From NCBI RefSeq assembly GCF_030013205.1, contig NZ_CP122648.1: a stretch of DNA of 64,000 nt. One strand, 5' to 3'. Origin of the DNA: Escherichia coli. GTDB lineage: Bacteria > Pseudomonadota > Gammaproteobacteria > Enterobacterales > Enterobacteriaceae. Shown piece by piece: positions 29,631 to 29,656 of this stretch (its first letter is position 1; every line of letters starts with the position of its first letter). The notes under the pieces are model-generated. The model ran no database searches. It saw only the letters and a list, made by a program, of their open reading frames with translations, and had not been told where the DNA came from. The translations under genes were made by a program, and so were the position numbers.

Positions 29631-29656
29631 GTCCCGAAACGAACCCGTTTCGGGAC
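29631..29656 (+). other. Stable hairpin in the gadB-gadC spacer (no T-tract)
   Basis: 11-bp perfect inverted repeat GTCCCGAAACG / CGTTTCGGGAC with 4-nt loop. Confidence 0.4.

What the first reader, a model, noticed from the sequence alone, without database searches (positions are those of the whole stretch)
29631..29656. Perfect 11-bp hairpin inside the gadBC operon
A strong stem-loop without a T-tract lies between gadB and gadC. It could act as an mRNA processing or stability element that sets the GadB:GadC ratio rather than as a terminator.
Basis: seen in the sequence. Interest (0 to 1): 0.2.

Follow-up and report, generated by a model that had tools for sequence, protein, structure and literature searches.

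The report
RNA 3'-end hairpin between gadB and gadC
A strong, evolutionarily maintained RNA stem-loop just after the E. coli acid-resistance gene gadB marks a mapped transcript 3' end inside the gadBC operon. It most likely lets the cell keep more gadB than gadC message, which is an ordinary kind of operon-internal element.

Summary
The hairpin is real and slightly larger than reported: a perfect 12-bp stem with a 4-nt loop at 29630-29657, 20 nt after the gadB stop and 108 nt before the gadC start (dG -18.3 kcal/mol). It is far beyond chance, single-copy per genome and matches no Rfam family.

Published Term-seq data for E. coli K-12 list an RNA 3' end at 1570594(-), which is window 29661, four nt past the stem.

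The stem is maintained by compensatory and G·U changes across Escherichia species, while E. coli polymorphisms fall only in the loop or closing pair. Unrelated strong hairpins occupy the same place in most gadB-gadC spacers from about 50 other genomes. Most of them lack a T-tract, and they are more stable on the sense strand.

Best reading: a 3'-end-forming stem-loop that yields a gadB-only mRNA. It probably acts mainly as a barrier to 3' exonucleases, with possible weak intrinsic termination at AAUUU. This would uncouple GadB from GadC levels.

Two things remain unshown: the effect on the GadB:GadC ratio, and the split between termination and processing.

This is a new member of a known kind, of low to moderate interest.

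The parts
28210..29610 (+). gadB coding sequence (glutamate decarboxylase), stop codon TGA at 29608-29610
   Evidence: ORF list; NCBIfam TIGR01788, 692.7 bits; RefSeq annotation of identical E. coli loci
29630..29657 (+). Hairpin 1: perfect 12-bp stem TGTCCCGAAACG / CGTTTCGGGACA with loop AACC.
   Evidence: Four of 12 pairs show compensatory changes in Escherichia, and RNAalifold predicts the same helix independently
29659..29661 (+). Short U run (TTT). The published Term-seq RNA 3' end at MG1655 1570594(-) maps to 29661.
   Evidence: Adams et al. 2021 eLife (PMC7815308), Supplementary file 1, sheet M63 0.4: average 33816.8 reads, class 'orphan'. The listed 61-nt sequence is identical to the window. 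The mapping K-12 coordinate = 1600255 minus window coordinate agrees (H22) and with the gadC terminator end
29621..29678 (+). Possible lower stem (29621-29629 with 29669-29678) that would enclose hairpin 1 and an 11-nt internal loop. Prediction only.
   Evidence: RNAalifold consensus and single-sequence fold. No compensatory changes, so unsupported beyond energy
29698..29722 (+). Hairpin 2: perfect 10-bp stem TTGTTCTGAA / TTCAGAACAA with loop TACGC, in the gadC leader
   Evidence: Weak covariation (one compensatory pair, several mismatches). An analogous second hairpin occurs in Providencia and Proteus spacers
29755..29768 (+). gadC Shine-Dalgarno sequence AGGGGGA (29755-29761) and ATG start (29766-29768)
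   Evidence: Read from the sequence; nearly invariant across Escherichia
29766..31301 (+). gadC coding sequence (glutamate/GABA antiporter)
   Evidence: NCBIfam TIGR00910, 1027.3 bits
31325..31355 (+). Canonical operon-end terminator: 11-bp hairpin AAGGGAGCGAT / ATCGCTCCCTT followed by a T run. Term-seq 3' end at MG1655 1568900(-) = window 31355.
   Evidence: 70553.1 reads; T-score 4.0 against 0.9 for hairpin 1

Best explanation
The stem-loop at 29630-29657 is a sense-strand RNA element that defines the 3' end of a gadB-only mRNA inside the gadBC operon.

Proposed mechanism (inferred). RNA polymerase mostly reads through into gadC. When the downstream part of the transcript is lost, 3'-to-5' exonucleases (PNPase, RNase II) digest back and stall at the GC-rich 12-bp stem. 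The loss could come from RNase E cleavage in the 155-nt spacer or in gadC, or from premature termination. A translatable gadB message ending at ...GGGACAAUUU is left. A minority of polymerases may also terminate directly at the short UUU run, making the site a leaky intrinsic terminator. Either route makes gadB mRNA more abundant or longer-lived than gadC mRNA, so the soluble decarboxylase can exceed its membrane antiporter.

Shown: the hairpin, a steady-state 3' end four nt after it, selection for pairing, and its recurrence in other genera.

Inferred: the exonuclease block, the source of the downstream ends, and any effect on protein ratio.
For: (1) Strong local structure: -18.3 kcal/mol, z = -4.9. 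Perfect stems of at least 12 bp are about 80 times more frequent in the window than in shuffles.
(2) The curated Term-seq 3' end at MG1655 1570594(-) maps to window 29661. It has 33.8k reads, against 70.6k at the gadC terminator in the same sample.
(3) Escherichia alignment: 93.5% of helix-1 cells are paired and 4 of 12 pairs changed on both sides. E. albertii has GCCCCGGG...CCCGGGGC. The G·U pairs that occur work only on the sense strand.
(4) Across 5406 E. coli records, three alleles account for 5059. They differ only in the loop or closing pair. All 11 sampled variant genomes changed only at 29641-29645.
(5) Of 58 gadB-gadC spacers of at least 60 nt from many genera, 42 have a hairpin stronger than all 40 shuffles (median z = -3.46). 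The hairpin starts a median of 18 nt after the gadB stop and is unrelated in sequence between genera.
(6) The Providencia/Proteus group has 5 of 10 compensatory pairs, with 0 of 500 shuffles as good.
(7) The best sense-strand hairpin is more stable than the best antisense one in 38 loci against 19 (Wilcoxon p = 0.0015).
(8) Only 9 of 58 have at least 5 T in the 8 nt after the stem. The UUU run itself is not conserved in Escherichia: AAACTCC in E. albertii.
(9) Dar & Sorek 2018 (PMC6061677) showed that E. coli steady-state 3' ends lie just downstream of stable stem-loops without U-tracts, which protect against PNPase and RNase II.
Against: There is no direct evidence here for exonuclease stalling, for a gadB-only transcript on a Northern blot, or for a coverage step across the hairpin. 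The 3' end is listed only for M63 glucose at OD 0.4, not for the two LB conditions, although the gadC terminator end is also listed only there. The end falls exactly after UUU, which also fits weak intrinsic termination. Term-seq read counts are not quantitative measures of isoform ratio. The cross-genus loci are phylogenetically non-independent, so the p-values are optimistic. Stable hairpins shortly after stop codons are common downstream of many genes, so part of the recurrence may reflect separate transcription units in some genera.
Confidence: 0.7

Rival explanations
1. The hairpin acts mainly as a leaky intrinsic (Rho-independent) terminator, that is, an attenuator. A fixed fraction of polymerases releases at the UUU run, and the rest read through to gadC. 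Stabilisation of the 3' end is secondary.
For: The 3' end maps exactly to the last U of AAUUU, four to five nt after the stem. That offset is similar to the one at the canonical gadC terminator. Yersinia rohdei, a Serratia sp., Comamonas kerstersii, a Citrobacter sp. and others carry a hairpin plus a T-tract of six to eight T at the same position. Dar & Sorek note that such stem-loops can shift between modes by changing U content.
Against: There are only three U. The T-score is 0.9 against 4.0 for the gadC terminator, and the consensus scan does not flag the site. The U run is not conserved within Escherichia, whereas the stem is. 49 of 58 loci lack a T-rich tail.
Confidence: 0.2
2. Rho terminates transcription in the untranslated spacer or early in gadC. 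The hairpin is only where trimming stops, so the gadB:gadC uncoupling is set by Rho and by gadC translation, not by the hairpin.
For: The spacer is 155 nt of untranslated RNA. This is the general model of Dar & Sorek for stem-loops without a U-tract.
Against: There is no C-over-G bias downstream of the hairpin; the C/G ratio is 0.67-1.12 in 78-nt windows. No Rho termination region is listed at this locus, but that data set was from LB, where gadBC is poorly expressed, so it is uninformative.
Confidence: 0.1
3. The hairpin is a DNA-level palindrome, either a binding site for a dimeric regulator or a cruciform, rather than an RNA element.
For: It is a perfect 12-bp inverted repeat that would be symmetric on both strands in E. 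coli.
Against: The variants keep pairing through G·U wobbles that are mismatches on the other strand. Sense-strand folding is favoured across genera. The arms are unrelated in sequence between genera, which a conserved DNA-binding protein would not tolerate. An RNA 3' end maps right after it.
Confidence: 0.03
4. The hairpin is a neutral or chance palindrome, or a remnant of a mobile repeat such as REP/BIME or a MITE, with no function.
For: No experimental function has been reported in the searchable literature.
Against: It is far beyond chance. It is single-copy in 5405 of 5426 E. coli genomes, so it is not a dispersed repeat. It has no Rfam match. Compensatory evolution and recurrence in other genera also argue against neutrality.
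Confidence: 0.04

Closest known systems
Protective 3' stem-loops without a U-tract that define steady-state mRNA 3' ends in E. coli (Dar & Sorek 2018, NAR, PMC6061677)
   Same: A stable GC-rich stem-loop, no U-rich tract, and a precise Term-seq 3' end a few nt downstream. The proposed role is a block to PNPase and RNase II.
   Different: This one lies inside an operon, between two co-transcribed genes, rather than at the end of a transcription unit. Dependence on Rho or on exonucleases has not been tested for it.
Intercistronic mRNA stabilisers or 'decay terminators': the REP hairpins between malE and malF in E. coli and the intercistronic hairpins of the Rhodobacter capsulatus puf operon (recalled from the literature, not checked here)
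   Same: A stem-loop between an abundant upstream cistron and a less abundant downstream membrane-protein cistron. The upstream segment is protected from 3' exonucleases, giving differential expression within one operon.
   Different: It is not a REP element: it is single-copy with an unrelated sequence. Differential stability of gadB against gadC mRNA has not been measured.
Canonical intrinsic terminator, for example the gadC terminator at 31325-31355 in this window
   Same: A GC-rich hairpin of similar size and energy, with a mapped 3' end four to six nt after the stem.
   Different: It lacks the U-tract of seven to eight nt and the upstream A-tract. The T-score is 0.9 against 4.0, and downstream gadC must still be transcribed.

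Membership tests
Canonical intrinsic (Rho-independent) terminator | GC-rich stem-loop of about 5-14 bp with a short loop | tested here: met
   12-bp perfect stem, 4-nt loop, -18.3 kcal/mol
Canonical intrinsic (Rho-independent) terminator | U-rich tract of about 7-8 nt immediately after the stem | tested here: not met
   The tail is AAUUUCCA, with three U in eight nt. The site is not reported by the terminator scan. T-score is 0.9 against 4.0 for the gadC terminator.
Canonical intrinsic (Rho-independent) terminator | Factor-independent release of RNA polymerase at the site in vitro | not testable with these tools
   Needs single-round in vitro transcription
Protective 3' stem-loop / exonuclease barrier (class of Dar & Sorek 2018) | A steady-state RNA 3' end immediately downstream of a stable stem-loop | tested here: met
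   Term-seq end at MG1655 1570594(-) = window 29661, four nt after the stem
Protective 3' stem-loop / exonuclease barrier (class of Dar & Sorek 2018) | No uridine-rich sequence after the stem | tested here: met
   The same holds for 49 of 58 analogous hairpins in other genomes.
Protective 3' stem-loop / exonuclease barrier (class of Dar & Sorek 2018) | Longer transcripts accumulate in pnp or rnb mutants, showing that the end arises by trimming | not testable with these tools
   Needs RNA-seq or Term-seq in exonuclease mutants under gad-inducing conditions. The supplement of Dar & Sorek is not held.
Intercistronic differential-stability element (malE-malF REP type, puf type) | The upstream cistron's mRNA segment is more abundant or longer-lived than the downstream one, and this depends on the hairpin | not tested
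   No coverage, half-life or protein-ratio data could be retrieved
REP/BIME or other dispersed palindromic repeat | Many copies per genome sharing a consensus | tested here: not met
   A 60-nt query containing the hairpin gives one place per genome (median 1, highest 2) in 5405 E. coli genomes
Any curated Rfam RNA family | Covariance-model match | tested here: not met
   No hit at 29600-29730 even at E <= 10
Rho-dependent terminator region | C-rich, G-poor rut region downstream, and bicyclomycin sensitivity | tested here: inconclusive
   No C>G bias in 78-nt windows downstream. The published bicyclomycin data set (LB) lists nothing here, but the operon is poorly expressed in that condition.
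RNase III processing site | About 20 bp or more of double-stranded RNA | tested here: not met
   Only 12 bp of continuous helix. The length requirement is from general knowledge.

The most novel reading that the evidence does not exclude
The whole 155-nt gadB-gadC spacer may be a regulated leader for gadC. In this reading hairpin 1 is a condition-responsive attenuator or processing switch. Read-through or cleavage would be tuned by pH, an sRNA, a protein or gadC translation, so that the decarboxylase:antiporter ratio is adjusted dynamically rather than fixed. The hint is that, outside hairpin 1, the spacer is 90.6% identical between E. coli and E. albertii, against 67.8% at gadC third codon positions. 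A two-hairpin layout also recurs in Providencia and Proteus.
Probability: 0.08. Interest if true: 0.6.

Novelty: new member of a known kind. Interest (0 to 1): 0.27.

Why it matters
GadB and GadC form the main glutamate-dependent acid-resistance system of E. coli and of many gut bacteria. The soluble enzyme is needed in far larger amounts than the membrane antiporter. A conserved stem-loop after gadB gives a simple post-transcriptional way to obtain unequal output from one promoter. It also explains an 'orphan' Term-seq 3' end in a published K-12 data set. Unrelated hairpins recur at the same place in dozens of genera, which suggests this uncoupling is a selected design feature of gadBC operons. 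That is relevant to engineering GABA production or acid tolerance, where the spacer is often deleted or replaced. The element does not represent a new mechanism.

Tried and rejected
- An Rfam scan at permissive E-values found nothing at the hairpin.
- The consensus terminator and promoter scan did not list hairpin 1 as a terminator and found no convincing gadC promoter in the spacer.
- The dispersed-repeat (REP-like) idea was rejected because the element is single-copy per genome.
- Literature searches for a described gadB-gadC stem-loop, terminator, monocistronic gadB transcript or UTR-derived sRNA found nothing relevant.
- Older J. Bacteriol. and Mol. Microbiol. papers with gadBC Northern blots, and the De Biase & Pennacchietti review, are not held.
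- Other end-mapping or quantitative data sets gave no usable data. These were Dar & Sorek (supplement not held), Conway 2014, SMRT-Cappable-seq, Thomason 2015, Ju 2019, the RNase E map of 2024, RIL-seq 2016 and Li 2014.
- Searching E. coli complete genomes with the divergent alleles of strains SCPM-O-B-8794 and E69 found no identical copies, so no extra covariation within E. coli proper.
- A first strand-bias test was biased, because the hairpins had been chosen on the sense strand. It was replaced by an independent scan of both strands.
- My first gadB nucleotide comparison with E. albertii was out of register and is not used. Only the gadC and spacer numbers from that call are used.
- No anti-terminator alternative pairing of meaningful length was seen by eye around the hairpin.

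Full report
**Observation.** A flanking T-A pair extends it to 12 bp at 29630-29657. Folded as RNA, the 26-mer gives -18.3 kcal/mol and occupies 93% of the ensemble. Its z-score is -4.9 against 200 dinucleotide-preserving shuffles, none of which fold as well. The whole 64-kb window holds four perfect hairpins of at least 12 bp with loops of 3-8 nt, against a mean of 0.05 in 100 dinucleotide shuffles. The hairpin is therefore not a chance palindrome.

**Genomic setting.** The flanking ORFs are gadB (28210-29610; NCBIfam TIGR01788, 693 bits) and gadC (29766-31301; TIGR00910, 1027 bits). The window is E. coli DNA. The 301-nt stretch around the hairpin is 100% identical to strain E2865 and at least 95% identical in 5425 of 5426 complete E. 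coli genomes, where RefSeq annotates the flanks as gadB and gadC. The stem starts 20 nt after the gadB stop codon and ends 108 nt before the gadC ATG. The tail is AATTTCCAAAG, which has three T and is not a T-tract. The consensus terminator scan does not list this hairpin, although it does list others nearby. A simple T-tract score is 0.9, against 4.0 for the canonical terminator after gadC.

**What it is not.**
- No Rfam family matches the spacer, even at E <= 10.
- A 60-nt query centred on the hairpin hits one place per genome in 5405 of 5426 E. coli genomes. It is therefore not a REP/BIME-type dispersed repeat.
- Homology between gadB and its paralogue gadA stops about four nt after the stop codon (hit H20), so the hairpin is specific to the gadB locus.
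- gadA has its own unrelated 15-bp hairpin about 20 nt after its stop, also with a poor T-tract.

**Transcript-end evidence.** The curated Term-seq table of Adams et al. 2021 (eLife, PMC7815308, Supplementary file 1) lists a 3' end at MG1655 coordinate 1570594 on the minus strand.
- It has an average of 33,816.8 reads and is classed as 'orphan'.
- Its 61-nt context is TAACGTTTAACGGTAACGGTGTCCCGAAACGAACCCGTTTCGGGACAATTTCCAAAGTCTG, identical to the window.
- The entry is in the M63-glucose OD 0.4 sheet.
- In that table the 3' end is the 51st base. I checked this against the gadY terminator entry.
- That base is the last T of ACAATTT, window position 29661, four nt after the 12-bp stem.
- The mapping (K-12 coordinate = 1600255 minus window coordinate) agrees with a K-12-like genome hit (H22).
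- It also agrees with the second listed end, 1568900(-) with 70,553 reads, which falls at window 31355 right after the gadC terminator hairpin and its T run.
- The site is 51 nt after the gadB stop. It therefore just misses the paper's 50-nt rule for a 'primary' gene end, which explains the 'orphan' label.

A steady-state RNA 3' end therefore does exist at the hairpin. It is listed only in the condition in which the operon's terminal 3' end is also listed.

**Conservation within E. coli.** Three alleles of the 60-nt region account for 5059 of 5406 records:

| Loop allele | Records |
|---|---|
| AACC (this window) | 3592 |
| AAGC | 1105 |
| ACACCC (opens the closing G-C pair) | 362 |

A fourth allele, loop CACC, was also seen. 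All 11 variant genomes that I fetched differ from the window only at 29641-29645, the loop and closing pair, within that region. The composition of the remaining 347 records was not examined beyond this sample.

**Conservation across Escherichia.** Nine distinct spacers were aligned: E. coli alleles, E. albertii, E. whittamii and four cryptic-clade or species representatives.
- The 12 pairs of the stem are formed in 93.5% of cells, and four pairs changed on both sides. For example, E. albertii has GCCCCGGG...CCCGGGGC where E. coli has GTCCCGAA...TTCGGGAC.
- Sliding the 3' partner by one to three columns drops pairing to 30-52%.
- RNAalifold predicts the same helix without being told.
- The single-side changes give G·U or U·G pairs on the gadBC sense strand. 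These would be C·A or A·C mismatches on the other strand.
- Hairpin 1 is the least conserved part of the spacer in sequence: 17 of 30 positions are identical between E. coli and E. albertii. The rest of the spacer is 115 of 127 identical (90.6%), well above gadC third codon positions (67.8%).

Hairpin 1 therefore behaves like a structure-only element, set inside a leader that is constrained at the sequence level.

**Beyond Escherichia.** A scan of species-representative genomes with GadC returned 80 loci. In most of them a gadB homologue lies directly upstream on the same strand.
- Of 58 gadB-gadC spacers of at least 60 nt, 42 contain a local hairpin more stable than in all 40 dinucleotide shuffles of the same spacer. 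The median z is -3.46, and 47 have z < -2.
- These hairpins are typically 10-17 bp and -15 to -34 kcal/mol. They start a median of 18 nt after the gadB stop (interquartile range 13-29) and are unrelated in sequence between genera.
- Only 9 of 58 are followed by at least 5 T in 8 nt. These include Yersinia rohdei, a Serratia sp., Comamonas kerstersii and a Citrobacter sp. The rest lack a T-tract, like E. coli.
- In an alignable Providencia/Proteus group the analogous stem has 5 of 10 pairs with compensatory changes and 98% of cells paired. None of 500 shuffles does as well. A second, smaller hairpin follows it, as in E. coli at 29698-29722.
- When both strands of each spacer are scanned independently, the sense strand gives the more stable hairpin in 38 loci against 19 (Wilcoxon p = 0.0015). 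This is as expected if G·U pairs are used in the mRNA.
- The loci are not phylogenetically independent, so these statistics are indicative rather than exact.

**Mechanism.** Four things are shown:
- a strong sense-strand RNA hairpin, just beyond the reach of a ribosome terminating at the gadB stop;
- a mapped steady-state 3' end four nt after it;
- selection for pairing;
- recurrence of the design across genera.

The rest is inferred. The general framework comes from Dar & Sorek 2018 (PMC6061677). In E. coli, steady-state 3' ends sit immediately downstream of stable stem-loops. Those without U-tracts act chiefly as barriers to PNPase and RNase II after termination or cleavage further downstream, and a reduced U content may mark inefficient intrinsic terminators.

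I therefore propose that the hairpin creates and protects a gadB-only mRNA. Decay or premature termination removes the gadC portion, exonucleases stall at the stem, and gadB stays translatable. This would allow more GadB than GadC from one promoter.

I favour the barrier role over direct termination for three reasons:
- the U run is short;
- the U run is not conserved in Escherichia (AAACTCC in E. albertii), whereas the stem is;
- most analogous hairpins in other genera lack T-tracts.

Leaky intrinsic termination remains a live alternative or contributor. The mapped end is exactly at the last U, and some genera have a full terminator at this position. A Rho-based origin of the downstream ends is neither supported (no C>G skew) nor excluded.

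A DNA-level palindrome function is unlikely, given the wobble pairs, the strand bias and the sequence turnover. A chance or neutral origin is excluded by the statistics and the covariation.

**Comparison with known systems.** Functionally the hairpin resembles the protective stem-loops without U-tracts of Dar & Sorek. It also resembles the classical intercistronic stabilisers: the REP hairpins between malE and malF, and the puf operon hairpins. Those two examples are recalled from the literature and were not checked here. It is not a REP element, not an Rfam family, not a canonical intrinsic terminator (the U-tract criterion is not met) and too short for RNase III.

No paper in the searchable library discusses a stem-loop, terminator or processing site between E. 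coli gadB and gadC. The only trace I found is the unannotated 'orphan' entry in the Term-seq table.

**Verdict.** A transcript 3' end is present and the structure is under selection. The effect on the GadB:GadC ratio, and the exclusion of termination, are untested. This is a new, reasonably well-supported member of a well-known class of operon-internal RNA 3'-end elements. Interest is low to moderate (0.27), raised slightly by the breadth of the cross-genus recurrence and by the unexplained sequence conservation of the rest of the gadC leader.

Noticed in passing
window 29698-29722: A second perfect hairpin (10-bp stem TTGTTCTGAA/TTCAGAACAA, loop TACGC, -10.9 kcal/mol) lies in the gadC leader. 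On the minus strand it is followed by TATTTTCC and was flagged terminator-like. A comparable second hairpin (ATCAG...CTGAT type) recurs in Providencia, Proteus and Klebsiella-like gadB-gadC spacers, with some compensatory changes.
   Followed up: partly
window 29611-29765, excluding 29630-29657: Outside hairpin 1 the gadB-gadC spacer is 90.6% identical between E. coli and E. albertii, while gadC third codon positions are only 67.8% identical. For example, AAGTCTGTTCACTGGCATTAGCAA is invariant in all nine Escherichia sequences. This suggests an unexplained sequence-specific function of the gadC leader.
   Followed up: partly
window 31325-31355: The canonical gadBC operon terminator: an 11-bp hairpin AAGGGAGCGAT/ATCGCTCCCTT followed by a T run. 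The published Term-seq 3' end (MG1655 1568900, 70,553 reads) maps to window 31355.
   Followed up: yes
L092 about 4110-4190 (E. coli strain 1A, downstream of gadA, minus strand): The paralogue gadA is followed, about 20 nt after its stop, by an unrelated perfect 15-bp hairpin (AACCGAATGCCCAGC/GCTGGGCATTCGGTT) with a weak T-tract (GCTTATT), ahead of gadX. No Term-seq 3' end is listed there in Adams et al. 2021.
   Followed up: partly
loci L012-L077: In non-Escherichia gadBC loci, GadC is 69-81% identical to E. coli GadC, but the adjacent GadB is only 51-64% identical to E. coli GadB. It is unusual for the transporter to be more conserved than the enzyme, and this may reflect different evolutionary histories of the two genes.
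   Followed up: no
loci L006-L009: Several draft Escherichia assemblies break inside or just before gadB, as expected from collapse of the near-identical gadA/gadB duplication. This limits how much upstream sequence is available.
   Followed up: no
E. coli complete genomes: Five of the 5406 copies of the gadB-gadC spacer are on records typed as plasmids, and one genome carries two copies.
   Followed up: no
window 44472-44499, 47844-47871, 15286-15316, 56393-56418: These are the other perfect hairpins of at least 11 bp in the window. 44472-44499 has A/T-rich flanks typical of an intrinsic terminator and coincides with a listed Term-seq end (MG1655 1555766, 143,837 reads). The flanks of the other three were not examined.
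   Followed up: no
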